Below are positions 23,862 to 38,543 of a stretch of DNA of 51,956 bases, one piece after another. Both the position numbers and the translations under genes were made by a program. The DNA comes from Spirogloea muscicola. Its lineage: Eukaryota. How positions within the stretch are numbered: position 1 is the stretch's first letter; each line of letters starts with the position of its first letter. The DNA is taken from positions 925,780 through 977,735 of the forward strand of contig WELB01000008.1 of NCBI GenBank assembly GCA_009602725.1. The letters are read 5' to 3'. Under the pieces are notes generated by a model. It worked only from the letters and a program-made list of their open reading frames with translations. It had not been told where the DNA came from and did no database searches.

Positions 23862-26800
23862 CTAGAAAAGAAATTTGCGGTTGTCTAGTGACGGTGGCAA
23901 CTTCATTGAAAGAAGAATCGTAAGTATGATCAAGAAGCCAATGAATACGAAGGGCAAGTGGTAGTCAAAGAAAGTGAATTTGTGAGGGCTTGACTTGCCA
24001 CTGATGCTCCATGCATACATGCTGCCCCCCACTGTCGGTGCCAGCGCTCTGCTGATGGCAGAGCCTGTCTGAGCCAGACCATTGACTGCACCAAGATGCT
24101 GAGGGCGGCTCACGCTGTTGACAATGAGGATAAATATGGACGTGAAACCACATAGAGAGCCCACACTGCAGTAATGAGACATGAACGAGTCAGTGTAGCT
24201 GTGCACAAGAGAAGCTGCTCAGCCAATCATTACGTTCTCTACCACTCTACTGACGAGGATGAAGAAGCTAATGAGCAATTACGCAACAATAATCTCAACA
24301 TCCGTCCATGATGTCTTCATTTCCCATCCATTGCACTAGCTTTTGCCTGACCAGTGTATTGGCCGATGTGGCCTCACTTTCATTGCATGCGCACTGCACG
24401 CCCTTTTTCTCTTCTTGTCACCACTGCCAACAACACAGCATCCCTGCGAGTGTACTTAATAGCTGGTTCTTTCACCTTCTCAGCATCATGCAGGCCGTGA
24501 CAGCCGCATGTACAGTAGCACCACTTTCCCCAAGCAAGTGCACTAATGGCAATAAGGACATGACCAGCCCTATAATAAGGCCAACCCGCAGGGTCTTTAG
24601 TGGTCCCATGTACTTCACCATGCGAGGGTACACCAGCAACTGGAATGGGATCTGAGAGTAGGAAGCTTCCTTCAACAGTGGGTGACTTTCTTCATAGAAG
24701 TTGTCAAGCTGCTCAATGCCAGGAGCGCTGACAACAAGGCAAGGAACCGTGGTGGACTAACTCACTAGTGCTGCACCACCAGCAGTCTGTGCAAGGCCGA
24801 CATCATTCGTTCCAAAATGAAGGCCCCCTACAGCCGGATCACTCAGGGACCAAAGTGGGAACACCTAGAGCAGAACGTAAGAAGCCAATATATAACACGT
24901 TACTTTGCAGGACATTACAGCATGGTATACAATCTCACAACAGCTGATAGAAGCATAGGCTAGTGCTCTAACACAGGAAGAATGGACCACATCTCCTCAT
25001 CCGTTTCTGATGATAGAACAATAAGTGAAGCACAAGCAGTTGTGGCACCTGTCAAACCCCTTCCTACCTCATCAAAGTCTGAGAAGATGAAAGCCATTCC
25101 ACAGTACATCAGGATTGCAACTACTGCATCATTGAGACAAACAGCGAGTATGTCACATGCAATCATCATGCATCTGCTGCATGAGGTACTCATTGTAAAT
25201 GCTCGTTATCTACTTCCAATATGAGGCCACGCATAATCATGCATTACAGGCTCACAGACTGAGGGACAAAGTCAGGAATCACCTGTATCCTGCTCTCCTA
25301 CTAGGGCATTCAGCATGCTCGGTTTGCGTTCAGCAACTTCAGACCTTTCTTTCTCCTCCTTCAGTGTCTTCTTAGTACGGGAAAAGAAGTCATCAAGCTC
25401 TGAGCTGTTGTACCTTGCACTGCTGTCCTTTTTCCTTGACCAGAAACGCAGGAACCAAGAAGTATAACTCCTCTGCTCTTTATCCTTGGAGAAAGTACCT
25501 AACCTACTTAGAGTTCGAACCGAGGACTTCTCTTGTGAGTGTTTAAAGTCCTCCACTGCTAATAGCGAGACTGTAGTATCCTCCATAGCTTCGGGGCTTT
25601 CAGCATTCCAAGAAGCCAGCTCATCACACAGTGCACCTCCTTCCATTGTGCACTGAGGGTAGCTTGTTTCTTCAAGTGCAGGACTTACTGACAAGACCGA
25701 TGCTGGGCTGGTCGCAAGACCTGGAAGGTCACAGCCTGCAATGCCTGAGATGACCTGCAAGGCAATATCATCCTCTCTTTGAAGCTCCAGCTCTTGTATG
25801 CCAGCTGAGAGCTGCTTGCCACCATGAGATGGAAGGAGGTAATCTCCATCCTCGCTATCTGGGGCAGCTCCTAAGCCCATTGCTGGAATGGCTTTAGCCC
25901 TCCCTAAAGTCTCAGGGAGGAAGGCTACACATAAACACAGGCCTACAGATGTGAGGATCGCCAGCAGTAGACAGGGAAGAGCAAACGGATACTGGTCGAA
26001 AATGGTACCCCTTGCAAACATGGGCAAGGTGGAGTACTTGTCAGCTGGCTGGCACAGCAGTCCTCCCACAGCAGGGCCTACAGTATGCGAAATATATAAT
26101 TAGTCAAACTTCTGTTGCCCGTTTGTGCAAATGTCTGAAGCATCTGTCAAAGCAGCCCGGAAAAGTCAGCTGATGGTTTAAAACTTACTTATCAGCTTTA
26201 GGAGAGGGTTGAAGAGATCAGGCTTCAGGATTTGGTTTTGGTGGGTTGGAGTTTGGGGTTTGGCATTGAGTGGTTTAGGATAAGGGGTTAGAGGATATAA
26301 AATTAGGGTTGCCCACTCCTTGCAGACCCTATTGATACTCCTAGACACTGCCAAGGTCACACTAAAAGAGTCAAACAAGTGCCTTTGAAGCGCCTCACCA
26401 AATAGCAAGCCAATGCCCCAGCAGACGCCAATGATTGAGAAGCTGCGGAGCTAAAATCATTGTGTCAGTCGACAAGCAGCTGGACACAGCTTTCGCAATG
26501 TCAGGATGTGACAAGCATTGGCAAAGGCAAGCTGCTGAAGCTCATCACAGGCTTTTCCTTGCAGTTGAGCCACCCTGATCATGAAATGGTCAACTCACCC
26601 TGCAGCCTGGTTGGACGAATCACTAATCTCCGACAAAGCCCTGCCATTCCACAGCTGACGGTCACACAAAGCCATTGCCGCCTCATATTCCCATAGTGCC
26701 TCCATGAAAACATGCGCCCTGCGTGGCTATAGTATTCAAGTCTTGCAGGGATGATCATCTATATATTCTTAATTATTCAAGTTTGTGCAGCCTCTCACGT

Positions 26801-27723
26801 CTTTCCGACACCAACCACACCAGAGAGAAGGCCATTTGCAAACCGAGCCCCTATTGCAACTCCGAATGTCTTGCAGAAGCCAAATATGAGAGCACAGATA
26901 AAGTTGGTGAACAATCCGAAGAGGATCACGGGTCTCCGACCAATGCGGCCGGACATTAGCCTGTTGCAGGCAAGCAAACACATTACTGCTTGTGTCGTTT
27001 AAGCTGAGAAAACCGTGCCCAAAATTGCTGCTCTGACATATCAAAGGCCATTTGAACTATGGATGCATGAGAGAGCTGAGAGCAGCAGATCTGCATAGCG
27101 GGCTGGGCTTAGCCTGTTCAACACACCCCCAGAAAAAGCTTGAGAGAAGAAGCCCAAAGCTGAAGGAAGAGGCCAGGTAACCTGCATAGTAGCTGCATAG
27201 GGAGCAGCCACCGGGCAAGTGAGCACAAATAATTTGAGAGAGTTCCTTGACTTCAATGATTGTGTAACTTGTGTATGGAATTACGAGTTTGTCCAGCTCT
27301 CGTAAGTATAGCTTAGAATCCTGAGCTCCCCGCTATGCGAGGAAGTCGAGCTAGACAAAGTGAGAAAGACTGACCCGAGTCGAGCAGGTTCATCTGTGAC
27401 GTGAAAATCCGCCACCTTCATAAGACAGCCGCGACAAGCCGCCCGTCCGTCAGTTCAAGCTTCTCGTGAGCCCTCCTCATCAAAGACAATGCTCGCAACG
27501 GCAGCTCTGCGGGCTTCCTCGAGTCCCGCAACCTGTGCCTGTCAAAATTGCCAGGTAGCAGGGGCACGTCCACGAGAGCAAACGGGCGCCACGCAGGGCT
27601 GACCATGAAGGCAGCAAAGGGCAGGAGGATCGTGGAGGCCATGGAGTTGGTCAGCAGCGCCCCCGCCAGCGCCAGCAGCGGCCCGCGGGGGAGCGGCGTG
27701 GCTTCCTCCGCGGCTGCCGCCAT
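23862..27723 (-). CDS. Major facilitator superfamily transporter, ZIF1/ZIFL-like, multi-exon
   Basis: ATG at 27723 begins MAAAAEEATPLPRGPLLALAGALLTNSMASTILLPFAAFM. Later exons give YYAGYLASSFSFG..FFWG, MSGRIGRRPVILFGL (MFS motif A), ARFANGLLSGVVGVGKT, GGLLCQPADKY..IFDQYPFALPC..FLPETL and HLGAVNGLAQTGSAISRALAPTVGGSMYAWS. Stop at 23862-64. Confidence 0.9.
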
Positions 27724-27969
27724 GGCGGCGTGGCCGCTGCCAAACACAGGCCCGCACTGGCTCGCGGCAGGCCCGCGCTCGCCGCCCGTCGCAGCGCCAT
27801 GCAGGGTCAGCTTGCACGGAGCGCTGCCATGGCCGGCGCGGGCGGCCGCGGGCGGGGCGCGCTCGGGGTGGCGGCAGCGGCCGTGGGAGGAAGCGTGGCA
27901 CTGGTGGCACTCGTCGGCCACCTGGCACTGTCCACCAGGCGGGCGACGTCATGCCCCCCGTCCCTTCGA

Positions 27970-28158
27970 GAAGAGAATGAGCTCGCCCATAGAAGCTCAT
28001 TCTCATTCTCATTCATGCGCACCGCGCGCCTTCTCTCTCTCATTCGCGCATAGAAGAAAGAGGCATCGTGTATGAGAGAGGGGCTGGCAGAAGCCAGCCA
28101 AAACAGAATGGACAAAACCCAAAGAGCTACAAGAGAATCACTCAGTAACCTCTGCTAA
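27970..28158 (-). mobile_element. Inverted 3'-end fragment of a CRE-like non-LTR element (ORF end plus 3' UTR)
   Basis: The minus strand reads CTTAGCAGAGGTTACTGA (LSRGY*). It continues into a UTR containing ATACACGATGCCTCT, shared with 33473-33488, and TTGTCCATTCTGTTTTGGCTGGCTTCT, which resembles 34749-34775. Confidence 0.7.
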
Positions 28159-28162
28159 GCAG

Positions 28163-28660
28163 CCCTTCGAGACGCCCTGGACGGGCTTGACGCGCGACGC
28201 CTCCTACCGCGCCGTTTGTGGAAGTAAGTAATGTGATGCCCGTCACCACGGATTCCCAGGGTCGCCATCACCGTCGCACCCTGGACACTGTGGGTGTACA
28301 ACCTGGCTGAGGCCCACGAGCCTTGGTGGATGTGGTGGTGACCAGGCATACAAGAGTTCCGCTTCCCACACACATTGCTGGCCACGCAGTGGGAGGTGCT
28401 GACAGAGAGAGCTCCGACACTACTCTGACTACCCCCCGCAGCGACCACCTTCTCCCGGCCGCAATCGACACTTTCGGCTGCTTGGGTCCTCGCTTCCATA
28501 CCTTAATTGAGAACATAGCGAGTCTGGAATTTGCACGACGCTGAGGATATGCTTCCAGCCCAGATGGGTATGCCGGCAGCCTATCTGTCATTTTTGCGAC
28601 GTCGAGTGTCAGCTTGTCTGCAGGGCTCCTGCGTTGCATCAGAAAGCTGGTCAAGCCTTC
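28163..28660 (+). mobile_element. Degenerate 5'-truncated CRE-like RLE non-LTR fragment (older subfamily), cut off by the next copy
   Basis: Frameshifted translation LRDAL..RDASYRA..VMPVTTDSQGRHHRRTLD.VG..PRALVDVVVT..LLPAAIDTFGCLGPRFHTLIENIA..RRRVSACLQ aligns by eye to ORF 33686-34582. Confidence 0.85.
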
Positions 28661-28664
28661 GAGC

Positions 28665-29690
28665 GCCGCAGAAGCTTGAGGAGGCTGCCAGAGATTCAAA
28701 ACAATCCAAGGAGCCAAGCAAGACTTACTTCTCTAGCCACACCTGGTGCCACCGACTGGATCACCTCACTCGCCTTCGCCAACGCCTTCAGCATCACCTC
28801 CGAGGCCTTTCGGACGTCGCTTCAACTCTTCCTCGGCCTCCCACCTAACGGCCTGATTGGGGTGCGCCAGAGTGAGTGCGGCTTCTGTGCAGAGGGTGCT
28901 GAGCTCGCCACTCACATACTGAGATGCCCCACTGGACCAGAAGTGGTGGGCATCCACAATCTCCTCCGCGGTGCCCTGGCGGGCTTGCGCGACGCCGGCT
29001 ACCGTGCTGTCGTGGAAGTCAACGATATCATGCCTATCACCACGGACGCCTAGGGACGTCATCATTGCCGCACACTTGACATTGTGGGCGTGCAACCTGG
29101 TGGAGGACCACGGGCCCTGGTCGACGTTGTTGTTACGGAGGCATATAAAGGTCCAGCATCGACAAACATCGCTGGCCACGCAGTGGGCGGCGCAGAACAA
29201 AGAAAGCTGCAGCACTACTCCAATTACCCCTAATGCGACCAGCTGCTGCCAGCGGCAGTCGACATCTTTGGCTGTCTGGGTCCTCGTTTCCACACTCTCC
29301 TTCAAAACATTGCCCATCTAGGCTACACACGACGTGCAGATGTGTTTCCGGCTGAGATGGGCTTGCCAGCTGCAATATGTGTAGTTCTTGCGACGACGAG
29401 TTACGGCCTGTTTACAGCGAGCTCAGGCTAATGCCTTGCACCAGAAAGCTGGGCGAGCTTTAGTTGGTGGCAGAAGGGCTTCGTATCTGACATCTAGTAT
29501 TCAGGCATCAATTAGCGACCTATGTTTTGATGGTTACTGAGCGGGTCAATCTGCTGTACGTTATGTAGGTCTTCGAATGTGCTTGCCTTTGTCCTTGGAC
29601 ATTTGGCCTTCGTATGTTTCAATATACGAAACTTTCCTTCAAGAGAGAAGGCGCGCGGTGCGCATGAAATTGAAAGGGAGGCCAATTCTA
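28665..29690 (+). mobile_element. 5'-truncated CRE-like non-LTR copy (CCHC + RLE + 3' UTR), pseudogenised
   Basis: Highly similar to 33698-34679. Codons that are CAG/CAA in that copy are TAG (29051) and TAA (29231) here, and there are small deletions. Confidence 0.9.
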
Positions 29691-29699
29691 GCCTTACGA

Positions 29700-29940
29700 A
29701 CGTCCTGTTACCTGGGTAATGAGCTGGCTAAGGGGGACACTAATAACCCCGGGTGAGCACATGCATATCTGAAAAGCTATATTGAGAAACCAAACCACCA
29801 CCACGGAAGCCATTAGCCTGGGCTAATGCACGACTGGCACGCTGGTGTATCGCGAGTGCCTGGGAGCGCTGTAGTCTCAATGATAGCCGCATTCTATAAC
29901 ATGCAGCGATGGCTTGCGGGACGCTAGAATGCCCTAAGCT
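29700..29940 (-). mobile_element. 3'-end fragment of a divergent CRE-like subfamily, tail-to-tail with the previous copy
   Basis: The minus frame reads AIAACYRMRLSLRLQRSQALAIHQRASRALAQ..SFSDMHVLTRGY* (stop 29740-42). This is homologous to RRRVSACLQRAQASALHQKAGRAL..SDLYVLTRGY*. Confidence 0.8.
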
Positions 29941-30269
29941 TCAACGGGTCCGTTTCACTCTGTCGTTCGCCGTCCCGTCGGTGGTCGATTCGTGTCGGTG
30001 CTGACTCAGACGCGGAGGTGGCCGCATGCGTGGACATTCAAGACAGGTCATCCATCAGCTTGGTGTGAAGAGAAGACGCAAGCGCGGGACCTCTCACTCG
30101 CTTTGGTCAGCCATGGTGCCCAGTTGTCGCCGAAGCACCACTTGGCGACGTTCGAATTCAATTGCCGCCCGCTCCAGTCAGAAGCGGGAAGCATCACCCA
30201 ATCGCTGCTTACGTCCCGCCAGACGCGGGCGTATTCTTCAATCGCTGCTCACGTTCCGTCCAACTGATG

Positions 30270-31220
30270 GCTCTGACTCTAAGTTTGATCAGATGGCGAG
30301 ACAGATTGCAGATTTAACCAATCAGCTCGCTCTAGCGAAACAGAAGGGCAAAGCTAAAGTAGTTTCTACTGCCATGCCCGAAGCAGACGATTATCCAGAG
30401 GACGAGGAATATAATCCTCTATAATCCTCAGGGAATTCACGTTGACGGGGATGAGGACATGGAGTCTTATGAAGGGTATGCCCATGCGGCCGACCTTATC
30501 CCGCGTGTTGCAGATGCACAGGGTTGCTCATCTCGCAATCCCTTGAAGAGGGGGGAGGTCGAATTAAGCCAGCAAACACCTCGCGGAATGGCCCGGTACC
30601 CAGCTAGGTTTAGAATCAAAGATATTGGTGATATTGTGGTACCTGCTCGTAGCGCTACTCCGAAGGTTGCTACTGATGCAGACATGCCTGTGAAGTCTTC
30701 AGTGTCTACCAATGTACTGCTTACCAAAATGCTTGAGGCACCTGTTTTGAGTATGCGAGACATTGGTGTGCCTATGGACACTCTGCATGATCTGATTCGG
30801 ACAAGGCCAGAAGTCGATAATGCTGTTGTGTCACAGATGGCACAGCATTCATCTGCCATGTCGGCAACTTCTTCTCTGATTTTATCGGATTCCGATTCTA
30901 CCAAACCTTGCAGATGCCCAACAGAGCGTACCAAGGCCATCGCGGCGGTGGCAATGCTCGACAATACAGCGAATATTGTGAAGTTGGCCAGTGGGACCCA
31001 TACTGCAACTCCTTCACTGGTACTACTCGATACAGGTGCACAGCCTATCCTAATCAGTCAGCAGTTCGCGACCAAACTCCGCCTGAGGAAGGATGATGTG
31101 CAGACTAGTACCATGAAGATCAGGACAGCGACTGGAGGTGCAGACTCTATTGTTGGTGTCACCAGGAAACCACTGCGTATTATGCTGCATAATGATGACC
31201 CAGATGCATGCACTTCGTTT
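30270..31220 (+). mobile_element. LTR-retrotransposon gag-protease fragment (Ty3/Gypsy-like retropepsin), forward arm
   Basis: LVLLDTGAQPILISQQFATKLRL..KIRTATGG is the retropepsin D-T-G motif and flap. A coiled-coil/acidic segment lies upstream (FDQMARQIADLTNQL). Confidence 0.8.
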
Positions 31221-32082
31221 CTGTCAGACCAGAACAATCAAAATCAGTCTCAGAGTAGTTCCTCCTAATGAGAGATGTGTCAGTGACTATCCCGCTGCAA
31301 GCTGAGATACCACTATACTTCTTTCCCTTCAAAAGAGGTAACGTAGCCTTCCGAGTTCCTGATTGACGCCAACCTGGTCTATACCATGCCATTTCTGCAT
31401 AATAATCGATTCCGAATCCTAACGGAATCAGAATCTCAGTTCCCAGCAAAACATCGTATGTAGTGGCCCTTGTAATCAGACACCCTGCAGTAAACGAAGT
31501 GCATGCATCTGGGTCATTACTACGCAGCATAATACGCAGTGGTTTCCTGGTGACACCAACAATAGAGTCTGCACCTCCAGTCGCTGTCCTGATCTTCATG
31601 GTACTAGTCTGCACATCATCCTTCCTCAGGCGGAGTTTGGTCGCGAACTGCTGACTGATTAGGATAGGCTGTGCACCTGTATCGAGTAGTACCAGTGAAG
31701 GAGTTGCAGTATGGGTCCCACTGGCCAACTTCACAATATTCGCTGTATTGTCGAGCATTGCCACCGCCGCGATGGCCTTGGTACGCTCTGTTGGGCATCT
31801 GCAAGGTTTGGTAGAATCGGAATCCGATAAAATCAGAGAAGAAGTTGCCGACATGGCAGATGAATGCTGTGCCATCTGTGACACAACAGCATTATCGACT
31901 TCTGGCCTTGTCCAAATCAGATCATGCAGAGTGTCCATAGGCACACCAATGTCTCGCATACTCAAAACAGGTGCCTCAAGCATTTTGGTAAGCAGTACAT
32001 CGGTAGACACTGAAGACTTCACAGGCATGTCTGCATCAGTAGCAACCTTCGGAGTAGCGCTACGAGCAGGTACCATAATATC
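31221..32082 (-). mobile_element. Inverted copy of the same protease region, extending 271 bp further 3'
   Basis: 31492-32082 is the reverse complement of 30630-31220 with about 6 substitutions. It continues into TYDVLLG (retropepsin C-terminal motif) ..GIDYYAEMAWYRPGW. Confidence 0.85.
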
Positions 32083-32102
32083 CACAAGTCTTTCTCGGCT
32101 CT

Positions 32103-33154
32103 GTAAAATGTGTGCAAGCAACGAGATATTCAACCATGTACTCAATGCAGGTCCTGAGGATAATTGTTGAGTACGAAGAGAGCGGATCCGTTTGGCAGTA
32201 ACTTGGTTTCCGGAACAGATAGATAGTGCCTTGAGCCAGAACGGGGGCCTAGCCCAGCCTATCTACTTCGTAACGGGGGCCAAGCCCAGTCCTATCTCTA
32301 CTTCGAACAGGCTCCAAGCCTTGATGTAGAAGAACCGTGTATCCAAGCGAAGATGCAGTATGCACTCTTGCAAGGAATGGAAAGTGTTGAATCTATGCAA
32401 CACCTCAGAGCAACGCAAGGTTATGCTTGTCAGCTACCCTCAACAACACGCAAGGTCACAATGCTTGTGACTCACCACGTGTGTCCAGTCTTACGCGCCG
32501 GTGGCGGAAGCTCCTCGGAGGTAAGGCTCTCTAGCGGCTATTACGCGGACGCCTATGCCTCTCCCTCTGGCTTTTGCCGCTGTCGCCGCCGCTGCTGCCG
32601 CCGCTGCCGCCACGGTCGTCGCTGCTGCTGCCATTGCCGTCGCCATCGTCGCTGTAACAAGCACGAGCGTAGCACGCGCGTTCAGTGTCACGCCAAGAGG
32701 GCGTGGCATAGGCGTCCGCGTAATAGCCGCTAGAGAGCCTTGCCTCCGAGGAGCTTCCGCCACCGGCGCGTAAGACTGGACACACGTGGTGAGTCACAAG
32801 CATTGTGACCTTGCGTGTTGTTGAGGGTAGCTGACAAGCATAACCTTGCGTTGCACTGAGGTGTTGCATAGATTCAACACTTTCCATTCCTTGCAAGAGT
32901 GCATCTTCGCTTGGATACACGGTTCTTCTACATCAAGGCTTGGAGCCTGTTCGAAGTAGAGATAGGACTGGGCTTGGACCCCGTTACGAAGTGGATAGGC
33001 TGGGCTAGGCCCCCGTTCTGGCTCAAGGCACTATCTATCTGTTCCGGAAACCAAGTTACTACCAAACGGATCCGCTCTCTTCGTACTCAACAATTATCCT
33101 CAGGACCTGCATTGAGTACATGGTTGAATATCTCGTTGCTTGCACACATTTTAC
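32103..33154. repeat. Long inverted repeat: arms 32103-32559 and 32705-33154, 145-bp GC-rich spacer
   Basis: The arms are direct reverse complements with about 5 substitutions and one 7-bp duplication (ATGCAGTATGCAC versus ATGCAC). Confidence 0.95.
32165..32445. mobile_element. LTR-like segment within the inverted repeat (mirror copy 32819-33092)
   Basis: Bounded by TGTTGAG...CTCAACA, with an internal tandem duplication of about 33 bp (GGGGCC.AGCCCAG.CCTATCT..ACTTCG.AAC). No target-site duplication or primer-binding site was found. Confidence 0.35.
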
Positions 33155-33471
33155 CTGAACTGAAAGACATCGCCAGCTGTGCTCTGACTCTCAGATAAAT
33201 GCGACTGCCATACCTTATGAGCTGTTCTATATGTTATTTTCTCAACATACATCATCGAAAGATCGCCAAGTCTACTTCTACACTTGACCCTGCTGATCAC
33301 CTACGGAATGCCTGTCGACTACTTCTGTGCTAATTCAAGTGATCGACGTCGTATGGCAGCCGACATCATATGGCACGACAACTCCTCCCTTCTCAACGTG
33401 CTGCAGGCGACTCCTTGCTGGTGGCGATACGTTTTACGATGACGGAGGGGCCTGAAGATGCTGTGTCTTGT

Positions 33472-33651
33472 GAAGAGGCATCGTGTATTAGAAAGAAATG
33501 TAGGCCAAATGGCCAGGTACAAAGGCAAGCACATCTAAAAATCTACATAACCTACAGCAGATTGACCCGCTCAATAACCACGGGTCAAAACATAAAGGTC
33601 ACTACTCGATGCATGAATACTAGATGCCAGGAACGGAGCCCTTCTGCCACC
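33472..33651 (-). mobile_element. Inverted duplicate of the 3' end of the adjacent CRE-like copy
   Basis: Reverse complement of 34502-34679, identical except for a 2-bp indel near the outer end. Confidence 0.95.
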
Positions 33652-34679
33652 ATCCAGAGGGGCACAATCCAGACTGGTTACGGCAGTGGAAGACGAATGC
33701 CGCAGAAGGTTGAGGAGGCTGCCAGAGATTCAGAACAATCCGAGGAGCTTGGCAAGACTCACTTCTCTGGCCACACCTGGTGCCACTGACTGGATCACCT
33801 CTCCCCCCGTCGCCAACGCCTTCAGCATCAGCTCCGAGGCCTTTCGGACATCGCTTCAACTCTTCCTCGGCCTCCCACCTAATTGCCTGATTGGGGTGCG
33901 CCAGTGCGAGTGCGGCTTCCGTGCAGAGGGTGCTGTGCTCGCCACTCACATGCTGAGATGCCCCACTGGACCAGAAGTGGTGGGCATTCACAACCTCCTT
34001 CGCGATGCCCTGGCGGGCTTGATGCGCGACGCCGGCTACCGTGCGGTCGTGGAAGTCAACAATATCATGCCTATCACCACGGACGCCCAGGGACGTCATC
34101 ATCGCCGCACACTTGACATTGTGGGCGTGCAACCTGGTGGAGGACCACGGGCCCTGGTCGACGTTGTTGTTACGGAGGCATATAAAGGCCCAGCATCAAC
34201 ACACATTGCTGGGCACGCAGTGGGCGGAGCAGAGCAAAGAAAACTGCGGCATTACTCCGATTACCCCCAATGCGATCAACTCCTGCCAGCTGCAATCGAC
34301 ATCTTTGGCTGTCTGGGTCCTCGCTTCCACACTCTGCTTCAAAACATTGCCAATCTAGGCTACACTCGACGCGCAGATGTGTTTCCGGCTGAGATGGGCT
34401 TGCCAGCTGCATATCTGTCGCTCTTGCGACGTCGAGTTTCGGCCTGTTTGCAGCGTGCTCAGGCTAGTGCCTTGCACCAGAAAGCTGGGCGAGCTCTAGT
34501 AGGTGGCAGAAGGGCTCCGTTCCTGGCATCTAGTATTCATGCATCGAGTAGTGACCTTTATGTTTTGACCCGTGGTTATTGAGCGGGTCAATCTGCTGTA
34601 GGTTATGTAGATTTTTAGATGTGCTTGCCTTTGTACCTGGCCATTTGGCCTACATTTCTTTCTAATACACGATCTCTTC
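33652..34679 (+). mobile_element. 5'-truncated CRE-clade-like non-LTR retrotransposon with an open C-terminal frame (zinc knuckle + restriction-like endonuclease) and 3' UTR
   Basis: Motifs: ARLTSLATPGATDWITSPP, FRTSLQLFLGLP, CECG-x10-HMLRC (CCHC), IHNLLRDAL, RTLDIV..LVDVVV (PD..D-like), AEQRKLRHY, LPAAIDIFGCLG, RVSACLQRAQA. This order matches the C-terminus of CRE/R2-type elements. No RT domain is present. Confidence 0.88.
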
Positions 34680-34879
34680 TCCTTCTGCCACCTACTAGAG
34701 CCTAGCTTGTGGCTATAAGCCCCTCCGTCATTTGGCCCCTTCGAACCTTTGTCAATTCTTTTCGGGCTGGCTTCTCACAGACCTTTGCCCCTTCGGGAGA
34801 GCCAATTCTCTTTTACCCCCTGGCCACGAACATCCACGGGTGTAGTACGGGAAAAAGGCAAGCGCGGCCACATTAACTG

Positions 34880-35240
34880 GTGGTTGGGAGGGGGCCGGTG
34901 GTCCTCACTTTCGCTGCTGGCCTCTCCAGCTGACCAGCCGCGCCGCGAACGGAGTGTAGTACTTACTGGGGGCTCGGTGCCTTCCGGTCTTTGTGTCCTG
35001 CTACCGCATGCGGCTATCTATGTCCCTACAGCGGTCCCAAGCGCTTGCTTTGCACCGCCGAGCCAGTCGCGCCCTTTGCAGCAGCCTCTGGCTTGCGCAG
35101 CGGGGTTGCTCTTCCTCCCCTCAGCTCATCTGACTTCCCACTGCTGACACGGGGGTACTAAGAGCGCCCTGTCTGCCTAGGCTGTGGCTCCGACAGGAAC
35201 ACTTTCTGCATGCACCTGGCTGGCTTTTACAGCCGCTCTT
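34880..35240 (+). mobile_element. 3' fragment of another CRE-like subfamily
   Basis: Reads GPHF...SCYRMRLSMSLQRSQALALHRRASRAL, then a frameshift, then AAASGLRSG..LSSSDFPLLTRGY* (stop about 35159-61). Confidence 0.8.
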
Positions 35241-35269
35241 TTTTATATCAGCAGCCGCATGCTCTGCTC

Positions 35270-35480
35270 TTTGGATGCTCTGGCGGACTTGATGCGCGAC
35301 GCCAGCTACCGCGCCACTGTAGAAGTCAACAAACGACCCAGAGGCGTTGTCCCGCATCCCTGGGTCCCGCGTCCTTGCTCTTCAGTGAAAGTGGCGCTAT
35401 CACAGCTGTGTGCCAGCGCAAATTCCTGCTCCGCCAGTAAACGACCCGCCCTACAGTGGCTGACCCGGGGTTGCTTAGCC
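35270..35480 (+). mobile_element. Heavily deleted CRE-like relic
   Basis: DALADLMRDASYRATVEVN at about 35274-35330, a TGGGTCCCGCGT (LGPR-like) piece, and CTGACCCGGGGT (LTRG) at about 35460. Confidence 0.6.
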
Positions 35481-36350: not shown

Positions 36351-38543
36351 TCATAAATCCTCTACACGTTGGATTTCGCCCTTCATGATTCGGTTGCTGG
36401 ACACTGAGAAGCCAAGCAAAGAGGGATCCACCACTTTCTTTCCCTTCTTGCTTTTCTTCTTGGCCACCTCCGCGAGTTCGGCGGCAACCTGCTGCCTAGC
36501 TGCGCTGGCAACGGCAGCTAATGGTGCCATGGGTGCTGGTGCAGAGCTGGGTGTTGTGGCAGGTCTAAGCACCCCCGTCCCACCGCTACTGAACTTGGAG
36601 TCACTTATAAGAGCCTCAGAGATCACGGGGAAAGCAACACGAATAGCTGCTGGCGATAAGTGTTGCCGGCGAGTCAGAAACTCGCCCTTAAATGCCACAA
36701 CAGATGGAGTTGCTCCCAAATACTGCTCAATGTAGCCACCCACTTCACTTGCCGAGGGCAAGGAGACACAAAACTCCAGCAGCGTCAAGTCTGCAAGTCC
36801 ACTTGGGTTCAGTCCATAGATGTAGCAACACTTCTTAACAACCAAGGAGGGGGCATTGTAGCTATGCTTATAGTCTGTTCGATGAGAAAGCAATAGCAGT
36901 CAATGCAGAGGATGCACTCACCTTCTCGTCCCGTCAGTTCCATGACCTGGACTGCGCACCATTGCCGAAATTCCCGGCCCCTGATCATGTCCGCTGCGTC
37001 GACAGCATCCACCTTTGCAGGTGCTGTAGATACATCTGGAAGCAGGCACACGAATTCATTGTCACACTGAAAATTCGTGTCATGCTTAGACGCTCTTGGA
37101 CCAATATATGGAGCATCCAAGGGGAACATACCTTTCCCTTGAGGTAGCTTCTTGGGCTTTGCCATGGTCCTACTGACTGGTGCCATCGCTGCCAAGGATG
37201 GAAACTCGACGGCACTGTCTTGAGGGGCCGCTGGTGCCCGCAGGAGAGAAGCCGCCGGCACAGCCCCGGGTGTCGCCAATGATGGCCGAGCTCCCGCAGC
37301 AACTGCCGCTGGGGCTCGTTGGATTTCCGCTCTGCATCTCAGAGACAGCAGAGTTGGAAGAGAACACACAAAAAGGCCGCACCACGTTGCCAACTACTTG
37401 TGCTGTTACATACACCAACAAGTGCTTCCTCACAGTGCATGGGGCATCGGGCAATACCACAGTGCAAGCACTACCTGCGGGCTGGTGCCACAGGCTGAGG
37501 GTTCTTCACGTTGCCAACTTGGAGGGTCACATCGTGCCCGTAGTCCCAGAAGAGGTCGTCATCATCTCCAATGGATGGGACGGAGGCAGCAGGTGCTGCT
37601 GGAGGTGCCCTTGGTGCTGATCCCTGACCCAAATTCAAAGCACCTCCGGAATGCAATGGCGTGGCGGCAGAAGATGGAGACCGCTGCTGCAGCCATGAGC
37701 CACTGGTCACTGCAGTCTTGGGGTTCATTGCAGCAGCTTGGGCCTGCTGAAGGGCCAGGGCGCGAGCCTGCTCCGCAGCAAGCCGGAGCTCTGCCTCCTG
37801 AATCTCTTTCAAGGACAGGCTGTGTGGCGACACCACTTGCTTTGCCGCCCACGCAGCCGGCGGTTGAGCGTCTGGTTGAGCGCTGTCCCGCTGCTGAGGC
37901 TGCAGGTAATCAGCCAGTGATGGTCCAGGCGGCAAAGGCATGTTTAGCAGCTGCTGCTGATCACTAGCTGTGCGTTTAGGAGTGCTCTTGGGTGGCGCAG
38001 GCGAGGAGCCTGGCTCAGGCATAGCAGCTTGCGCAGCCACTGTTGTCGCTGGCCCGCCAGAGCTAGCCCTGGCCTTGGCGGCGCGCTTCTTACTCTTGCG
38101 GCTCTCACGGGGCTCCACGAATTCTGCCTGGCTGCTGTCCTCCTTCTCAGCAATGGCAGCCTCACTCTGGGCGGCTGCCAGGATCTGGGCAGCTAGAGCA
38201 TGACCCTGGCCCCTCTTGCCCACAGCAACGGGTGGCGCCAGCTCCATCTTCACCTGGTCCCAGCGCGGGGACGTGGCAGCGGCGGTGGGCCTGGAAGCCC
38301 GCTCCTCCTCTTCCAGCTGGATCTCCCTCAATGACTGTGGTGCAGTAGCTGAGCTGGCCCAGGGCCTCCCTGGCGCAGGCGCAGATGACGACACGTGAGC
38401 AGCAGCAACAGCCGCCTGGGCTGCACGAGCTGCCTCCTCCCCCTGTATCTCCTTCAGAGACTGCGCTGGCCTGGCTACAGCAGCCTCAGCCGCAGTCGCC
38501 CAGGCTGGTGATGGTGGCTGCGCTGCTTCTTGCTTTTGCCATG

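What the first reader, a model, noticed from the sequence alone, without database searches (positions are those of the whole stretch)
27970..35480. 7.5-kb transposon nest in which unrelated TE fragments are each folded into inverted repeats: candidate hairpin-RNA TE trap
Seen: three unrelated sequences lie back to back, each as an inverted repeat. They are the retropepsin gene (591-bp arms), the LTR-like segment (about 450-bp arms) and the CRE 3' end (180-bp arms). There is also a 27-bp inverted repeat around 28012-29668 and oppositely oriented CRE tails at 27970, 29740 and 34880. Established: TE-derived inverted-repeat loci such as maize Mu killer make hairpin siRNAs that silence the family in trans. 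Inference: one read-through transcript would form dsRNA against several retroelement families, which could be a compact multi-family silencing locus or a hotspot of fold-back repair. Substitutions between arms, several at CpG, argue against a simple assembly duplication.
Basis: partly seen in the sequence, partly recalled or inferred. Interest (0 to 1): 0.85.

Follow-up and report, generated by a model that had tools for sequence, protein, structure and literature searches.

The report
Transposon pile with one flipped block

Summary
The inverted repeats are in the sequence as described, but they are not three unrelated fold-backs. The CRE 'hairpin' is one LINE inserted into an older, opposite-facing tail, with a 12-bp target duplication. 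The 27-bp repeat is the shared 3' end of two separate insertions. The protease and 'LTR-like' repeats both turn into direct repeats if the single block 31221-32568 is flipped. They likely belong to one decayed, low-copy family (about 3-6 copies by contig depth) related to DNA-methyltransferase-carrying Gypsy elements; the closest relatives are Spirogloea muscicola proteins. Contigs of public runs carry alleles of both arms and bridge two joins, but no listed contig bridges the two inversion points. One junction has indirect depth support; the other could not be tested. One contig of a probable RNA run is a GT-AG-spliced transcript entering the protease block on the minus strand; read-through into the second arm, small RNAs and trans-silencing are not shown. 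Opposite-facing CRE joins also occur elsewhere in this genome. Verdict: an ordinary transposon nest with a possible incidental hairpin.

The parts
27960..28038 (+). Short 3' tail of a CRE-like LINE, subfamily 2; ends in the 27-bp motif (left bound approximate)
   Evidence: 87% over 38 nt to the 3' end of 29642-29945; very high summed contig depth
28039..28160 (-). CRE-like tail, tail to tail with the previous piece (bounds approximate)
   Evidence: Ends like the tails at 33473-33495 and 34658-34686; 81% to 34748-34783
28164..28663 (+). 3' ORF fragment of a CRE-like LINE, diverged subfamily
   Evidence: 74% to 33997-34512; tblastn to P0002
28660..29641 (+). 5'-truncated CRE-like LINE with tail, stops and frameshifts
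   Evidence: 90% to 33694-34672
29642..29945 (-). 3' end of a CRE-like LINE, subfamily 2; 29642 is its terminus
   Evidence: 84% to P0001 residues 484-526; 53-78 contigs per row end here with unlike flanks, agreement 0.35 (table 7)
29946..30629 (+). Segment A: decayed gag-like region upstream of the protease
   Evidence: Matches Spirogloea P0006 and P0017; join to arm 1 bridged by a 0-difference contig 30540-30666
30630..31220 (+). Protease arm 1 (B), cut after the retropepsin core
   Evidence: Pfam gag-asp_proteas E 1.9e-5, below the curated cut-off
31221..32568 (-). The inverted block: terminal-repeat-like segment E (32103-32568), a 20-nt join (32083-32102), protease arm 2 (31492-32082) and its natural continuation C (31221-31491)
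   Evidence: Flipping it in silico makes both long repeats direct; internal join bridged by contigs 32046-32141 and 31981-32112; the ORF runs from arm 2 into C
31799..32046 (-). 248-nt GT-AG intron skipped in one contig of probable RNA run X5
   Evidence: X5 record 17, 0 differences, joint absent from DNA runs X1 and X2; ends read; 5' part carries arm-2 letters
32569..33154 (+). GC-rich spacer F (32569-32695) and second copy of segment E (32696-33154)
   Evidence: segment 32998-33120 at about 2x single-copy depth
33155..33471 (.). Segment G: unidentified low-copy repeat next to E
   Evidence: Contig at about 5x single-copy depth; no convincing protein match
33472..33651 (-). Older CRE-like tail, split by the next insertion; its remainder is 34681-34701
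   Evidence: 34681-34701 continues the same reverse-complement tail
33652..34680 (+). 5'-truncated CRE-like LINE with open 3' ORF, flanked by a 12-bp direct repeat (33640-33651, 34681-34692)
   Evidence: chance about 2e-4; 74-81% to three SM-numbered gene models
34702..35335 (+). Further CRE-like tail, subfamily-2-like ORF end and a 60-nt ORF scrap (bounds approximate)

Best explanation
This is an intergenic pile of transposon fragments whose inverted repeats likely arose in two ordinary ways: very abundant CRE-like LINEs likely inserted, front-truncated, into and against each other in both orientations, and one 1.35-kb block (31221-32568) of a decayed Gypsy-type element was likely flipped, or copied in backwards, between near-identical sister copies. 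Shown: the 12-bp direct repeat around 33652-34680 and the split older tail; the 27-bp motif as an element terminus; that flipping one block turns both long inverted repeats into direct repeats; that after each turn the second arm runs into flanks (A, G) that the other arm lacks, so neither is a strand simply copying itself. Inferred: the flip was made by break repair at short imperfect homologies (a 12-13-nt imperfect match at 32560, P = 0.007; no significant match at 31221, P = 0.12); E is a terminal repeat of the same element and carries its promoter. A minus-strand RNA likely enters the block; if it ran past 31221 it would fold into a stem of 307 bp after splicing, an incidental endogenous hairpin against a family of a few copies rather than a built multi-family trap.
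For: Target duplication and split tail. Diverse flanks at 29642 in runs X1, X2, X4 (table 7). Contigs join CRE pieces to 28038-28044 and 29641-29642 in combinations not in the window, and show opposite-strand joins 29462/33592 (X1, X3) and 35116/35240 (X1, X2, X4), with 343 further joints unlisted (tables 5 and 5c). Flip test. Relatives of the protease: Spirogloea P0004-P0006 at 39-54%; 6 of the 13 relatives of 795 residues or more that were scanned carry Pfam DNA_methylase, and P0107 has zinc knuckle, protease, methylase, RT, RNase H and integrase; P0006 aligns to the methylase region of P0009 at E 3e-18. Both arm alleles in DNA contigs: X1 gives the arm-1 base and X2 the arm-2 base for the same 123-nt segment, at 1.7x and 2.0x single-copy depth, where two copies with one difference predict 1.67x. 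The protease segment next to 31220 is at 3.8-3.9x and its natural continuation at 3.1x, and contigs of X2, X3 and X4 stop exactly at 31220, so one copy leaves there.
Against: No listed contig bridges 31220/31221 or 32568/32569 (21 rows listed and 350 not; 32542-32615 was skipped as a repeat). The break at 31220 is also expected if the true state were unflipped. X1 has a contig that runs through the equivalent base (31492) without a break. The window's arm-2 letters at 31474, 31484 and 31518-31523 appear in no listed X1 or X2 contig (contigs drop variants). E, F and G have no protein or family match, so their link to the Gypsy element rests on adjacency and on a contig that suggests a second genomic copy of the E-to-protease join (joint 32107/32237). 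Contig depth is a rough measure of copy number.
Confidence: 0.62

Rival explanations
1. The block 31221-32568 was placed backwards by the assembler or gap filler; in the cell the repeats are direct and there is no long hairpin.
For: The window has three N gaps, so it is a scaffold; one flip explains both repeats; neither inversion point is bridged by a listed contig; the nest is flanked by repeats with summed depth thousands of times the single-copy level.
Against: No N at either junction, and the overlaps there (at most 7 and about 13 nt, imperfect) are shorter than assemblers merge on (general knowledge). Bin arithmetic in X1 fits one contig running from 31214 to 31272, and X2 has extra cover on the last bases of arm 1 (indirect). 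No joint from 31220 to 32568, the unflipped form, is among the 3 joints listed, though the skipped repeat could hide it. Flank depth is even in X2 (85-104) and X4 (50-58), which speaks against amplification chimeras.
Confidence: 0.15
2. One repair event with serial template switches made both long repeats: synthesis along the minus strand turned at 32568 and again at 31221, each time onto the opposite strand of a related copy.
For: In both repeats the natural sequence runs from the right arm into the spacer and the junction lies at the left end of the spacer. Imperfect match at 32560, P = 0.007. Sequential hairpins and large imperfect loops are described in yeast (PMC7467729, passages).
Against: Self-priming would copy the strand just made and run on into its own flank; here each second arm runs into a flank that the first arm lacks. 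The arms differ by about 1%, with a cluster of 3 changes in 6 bp and a 7-nt indel, as sister copies do. One inversion needs fewer steps.
Confidence: 0.12
3. The block acts as a Mu-killer-like locus: RNA from the element's own repeat or from the upstream GYF gene reads through 31221, folds back, is diced, and silences the methyltransferase-carrying Gypsy family, with CRE silencing as a side product.
For: Spliced minus-strand contig with arm-2 5' end and a 0-difference contig on 32233-32423 in X5. The GYF gene ends at 36351 on the same strand. Strong predicted stems. S. muscicola has DCL2/3/4-type and AGO genes (PMC7994812, passages). 7 of 10 hand-mapped CRE insertions would be antisense in such an RNA.
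Against: The X5 contig ends inside the arm, has depth 6, and may come from another copy that carries the same join. Splicing halves the stem. The family has few copies and no RT is present here. 7 of 10 is within chance. CRE pieces with opposite orientation are common in this genome.
Confidence: 0.1

Closest known systems
Maize Mu killer (PMC3440606, abstract and passages read)
   Same: Partial inverted duplication of a transposon coding region beside host genes that could drive read-through; cryptic splicing of read-through RNA is reported there too.
   Different: Mu killer was found by dominant trans-silencing of an active DNA transposon. Here the element is a decayed low-copy retroelement, the arms look like sister copies, and no silencing is shown.
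Plant endogenous inverted repeats such as Arabidopsis IR71 and the hundreds of mostly transposon-derived ones near genes (PMC10827316, passages read)
   Same: Transposon-derived long stems (591 and about 460 bp) in an intergenic region; the nest starts about 240 bp upstream of the next ORF's start codon.
   Different: Transcription through both arms and siRNA output are not shown; the host is likely a zygnematophyte alga.
KnitGypsy-Dnmt3 of Klebsormidium nitens (PMC5890265, section 9 and passages read)
   Same: Relatives of the window's protease carry a C5 methylase behind the protease; one has the full Gypsy domain set.
   Different: The window holds only gag and protease scraps, with no methylase, RT or integrase. 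The figure legends give this family DIRS-type repeats, described for the Symbiodinium elements as A-coding-B-A-B, so inverted ends are likely not native.
Restriction-like-endonuclease LINEs, CRE clade (PMC4640811, passages read)
   Same: C-terminal Cys/His cluster followed by an endonuclease-like region, 5' truncation, a target duplication; transposons are among the known targets of such clades.
   Different: No RT is in the window, so the clade is not tested; the label CRE rests on motifs recalled from memory.

Membership tests
Mu-killer-type silencing locus | Inverted duplication of transposon sequence | tested here: met
   junctions supported only indirectly
Mu-killer-type silencing locus | One RNA spans both arms | tested here: inconclusive
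   One spliced X5 contig enters arm 2 and ends inside the arm
Mu-killer-type silencing locus | Small RNAs from the stem | not testable with these tools
   No small-RNA run listed
Mu-killer-type silencing locus | Heritable trans-silencing of an active family | not testable with these tools
   Needs genetics; the family is at about 3-6 copies by depth
Multi-family transposon trap (piRNA-cluster type, features recalled) | Fragments of many families, strongly biased to antisense | tested here: inconclusive
   Two element classes; 7 plus and 3 minus CRE insertions, mapped by hand (one search counts the split tail twice, 7 and 4)
Intramolecular fold-back inversion | The second arm is a copy of the strand just made and continues into that strand's own flank | tested here: not met
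   Arm 1 continues into A, arm 2 into the join and E; the E arms continue into the join or into G
Intramolecular fold-back inversion | Short stem at the turning point | tested here: inconclusive
   P = 0.007 at 32560, 0.12 at 31221, 0.24 at 33652
Gypsy-Dnmt3 retrotransposon | Gag and retropepsin | tested here: met
   Pfam protease hits below cut-off; 136 relatives at E <= 0.001; gag-side matches
Gypsy-Dnmt3 retrotransposon | C5 methylase, RT, RNase H and integrase in Pol | tested here: inconclusive
   Absent from this truncated fragment; present in relatives
Gypsy-Dnmt3 retrotransposon | DIRS-type split repeats | tested here: inconclusive
   E followed once by coding sequence and once by G would fit; no full element could be fetched
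CRE-clade LINE | 5' truncation and target-site duplication | tested here: met
   12-bp repeat around 33652-34680; none found for 28665-29641
CRE-clade LINE | C-terminal zinc finger plus restriction-like endonuclease | tested here: inconclusive
   Motifs seen by eye and recalled; no Pfam hit, no PDB hit
CRE-clade LINE | Placement by RT phylogeny | not testable with these tools
   No RT in the window

The most novel reading that the evidence does not exclude
A flipped derivative of a methyltransferase-carrying Gypsy element is transcribed from its own repeat into a fold-back RNA that shut down that family and also feeds CRE antisense RNA to Dicer: a natural 'killer' locus in the algal sister group of land plants.
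Probability: 0.1. Interest if true: 0.62.

Novelty: new member of a known kind. Interest (0 to 1): 0.24.

Why it matters
As it stands it is a clear example of how nested LINE insertions and one inversion mimic a designed hairpin array. It would matter if RNA crosses 31221 and yields small RNAs: knowledge of small RNAs in streptophyte algae is called almost non-existent (PMC7994812, abstract), and the target would be a retroelement family whose relatives carry their own DNA methyltransferase. The arm-specific bases make that test easy. The side finding, protease-plus-methylase proteins in Spirogloea and in the liverwort Calypogeia, may widen the known range of Gypsy-Dnmt3 elements.

Tried and rejected
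No whole genome is held, so no genome-wide survey of inverted repeats. Word-based homologue search with the protease found none among 2710 candidates; the full HMMER scan found 136. No RNA holder on record was listed; X5 is RNA only by the tool's guess and by the spliced join. X5 has no cover on 32440-33239, which proves nothing. Metagenome scans for a full element found nothing; two alignments were too loose to scan with. The idea that the E repeat is a native inverted-end junction of a DIRS-like element was dropped: the repeats described for that layout are A-coding-B-A-B. A host-gene search for the organism used the wrong length class and was uninformative. The protein atlas did not answer. 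Rfam gave one chance-level hit, ARAGORN none, the bacterial promoter scan nothing relevant. The protease-arm comparison used a wrong constant and was redone. No target duplication was found around the whole nest or the Gypsy part. Paper searches for this locus or for such nests in Spirogloea listed nothing on it; most subscription journals are not searched, and no supplements were read. PMC9977147 (passages) added nothing specific.
Full report
Observation. No inverted match was listed elsewhere in the window. Three of 11 substitutions are at CpG, P = 0.06.

Organism and setting. The closest relatives of the protease are Spirogloea muscicola gene models, and the CRE ORF hits three gene models with the same SM numbering at 74-81%, so the window is likely from that alga or a close relative. 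The nest lies between the stop of a GYF-domain gene at 36351 and an ORF starting near 27723, both on the minus strand. Four runs of one sample (X1-X4) match the unique flanks with 0 differences and may be the source of the assembly, so they test the assembly and are not independent of it.

The CRE repeats are by-products of insertion. The CRE-like parts have summed contig depths thousands of times the single-copy level (a rough measure). The 1029-bp piece 33652-34680 is flanked by an exact 12-bp direct repeat (33640-33651, 34681-34692; chance about 2e-4), and 34681-34701 continues the reverse tail that stops at 33651. This is what a new insertion into an older, opposite-facing tail leaves; a fold-back would not make the third piece. 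The full identity of the two tails is the one point against, and fits a young subfamily. The 27-bp repeat is the 3' terminus of a second subfamily: contigs end at 29642 with unlike flanks (table 7), a decayed third copy lies at 24369-24410, and both termini abut another tail. Contigs from elsewhere in the genome join CRE pieces to these termini in other combinations and include opposite-strand joins at 29462/33592 and 35116/35240. The label CRE comes from motifs recalled from memory; Pfam and PDB gave no hit.

The two long repeats reduce to one event. In both, the natural sequence runs from the right arm into the spacer (the protease ORF does so) and the junction is at the left end of the spacer. 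Flipping 31221-32568 in silico makes both repeats direct. After each turn the second arm runs into a flank that the other arm lacks, so self-copying is unlikely and sister copies are likely. The protease belongs with elements that carry a C5 methylase behind it: 6 of the 13 relatives of 795 residues or more scanned (16 proteins scanned in all, one of them the CRE hit P0001), with the full Gypsy set in P0107, and a methylase-like region in Spirogloea P0006. This matches KnitGypsy-Dnmt3 (PMC5890265, section 9 and passages read), whose repeats are said to be laid out as in DIRS elements; the same paper gives that layout as A-coding-B-A-B. E followed once by coding sequence and once by G would fit, but this is inference: E, F and G have no match and no full element could be fetched.

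Is it an assembly error? Contigs bridge A to arm 1 (30540-30666, 0 differences) and the join of arm 2 to E (32046-32141, 1 difference). For one 123-nt part of E, run X1 carries the arm-1 base and X2 the arm-2 base, at 1.7x and 2.0x single-copy depth, so both arms exist. Neither inversion point is bridged among the 21 rows listed (350 not listed), and 32542-32615 was skipped as a repeat. Indirect support at 31220: contigs of X2, X3 and X4 stop exactly there, the arm is at 3.8-3.9x and its natural continuation at 3.1x, and bin arithmetic fits a contig from 31214 to 31272 in X1. Against: X1 runs through the equivalent base, the same break is expected for the unflipped state, and five arm-2 letters near the inner end are in no listed contig. 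Even flank depth speaks against amplification chimeras. I put a wrongly oriented block at about 15%.

Expression. Run X5 (another sample; RNA by the tool's guess) holds a 263-nt contig with 0 differences whose first 44 nt match 32090-32047 with arm-2 letters and whose rest matches the arm after a 248-nt skip that begins GT and ends AG. The tool lays the second part on arm 1 and calls the joint opposite-strand; the two arms are identical there, and a plain intron in arm 2 is the simpler reading. DNA runs X1 and X2 lack this joint. The splice shifts the frame off the protease. A second X5 contig matches 32233-32423 with arm-1 letters. So a minus-strand RNA likely enters the block, from this locus or from another copy with the same join (depth 1.5x; joint 32107/32237). 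It is not seen past 31580. If it crossed 31221 it would form a 307-bp stem. The alga has DCL2/3/4-type and AGO genes (PMC7994812, passages read).

Comparison and verdict. It resembles Mu killer in anatomy (PMC3440606, abstract and passages read) and plant endogenous inverted repeats, hundreds of which are transposon-derived in Arabidopsis (PMC10827316, passages read). It cannot be filed as a killer locus: read-through is inconclusive, and small RNAs and trans-silencing are untested. It fails the test for a self-primed fold-back (mechanism in PMC7467729, passages read). The multi-family trap reading loses its main support, because two of the four repeats are insertion by-products and two are one block of what is likely one family. 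Interest 0.24; the killer-locus reading keeps about 10%.

Noticed in passing
P0006 (Spirogloea), P0140 (Calypogeia fissa): Protease followed by a C5-methylase-like region in a zygnematophyte gene model and in a liverwort protein (Pfam DNA_methylase E 1e-6). The searches and passages name only Klebsormidium or 'streptophytes' for Gypsy-Dnmt3, so the range may be wider than described.
   Followed up: partly
P0005 (Spirogloea gene model): A chimeric model with a CRE end, a gag-protease part and another CRE part: a similar CRE and Gypsy nest at another locus.
   Followed up: partly
window:36491-36793 and 27015-27198: Contigs with 16-22 differences in about 300 nt at near single-copy depth look like paralogues of the flanking genes, as expected from the triplication reported for S. 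muscicola (PMC7994812).
   Followed up: no
window:24369-24410: Decayed third copy of the subfamily-2 CRE terminus, about 81%, likely in an intron of the neighbouring gene.
   Followed up: no
window:28038/28039 and 29641/29642: Both subfamily-2 termini abut another CRE tail, tail to tail, and many contigs show other CRE pieces joined there: CRE tails may be preferred targets of CRE insertion.
   Followed up: partly
window:13513-16617: Glycoside hydrolase family 31 gene on the minus strand with unusually long exons.
   Followed up: no
window:32937-33017: Imperfect 32-bp tandem repeat inside segment E.
   Followed up: no
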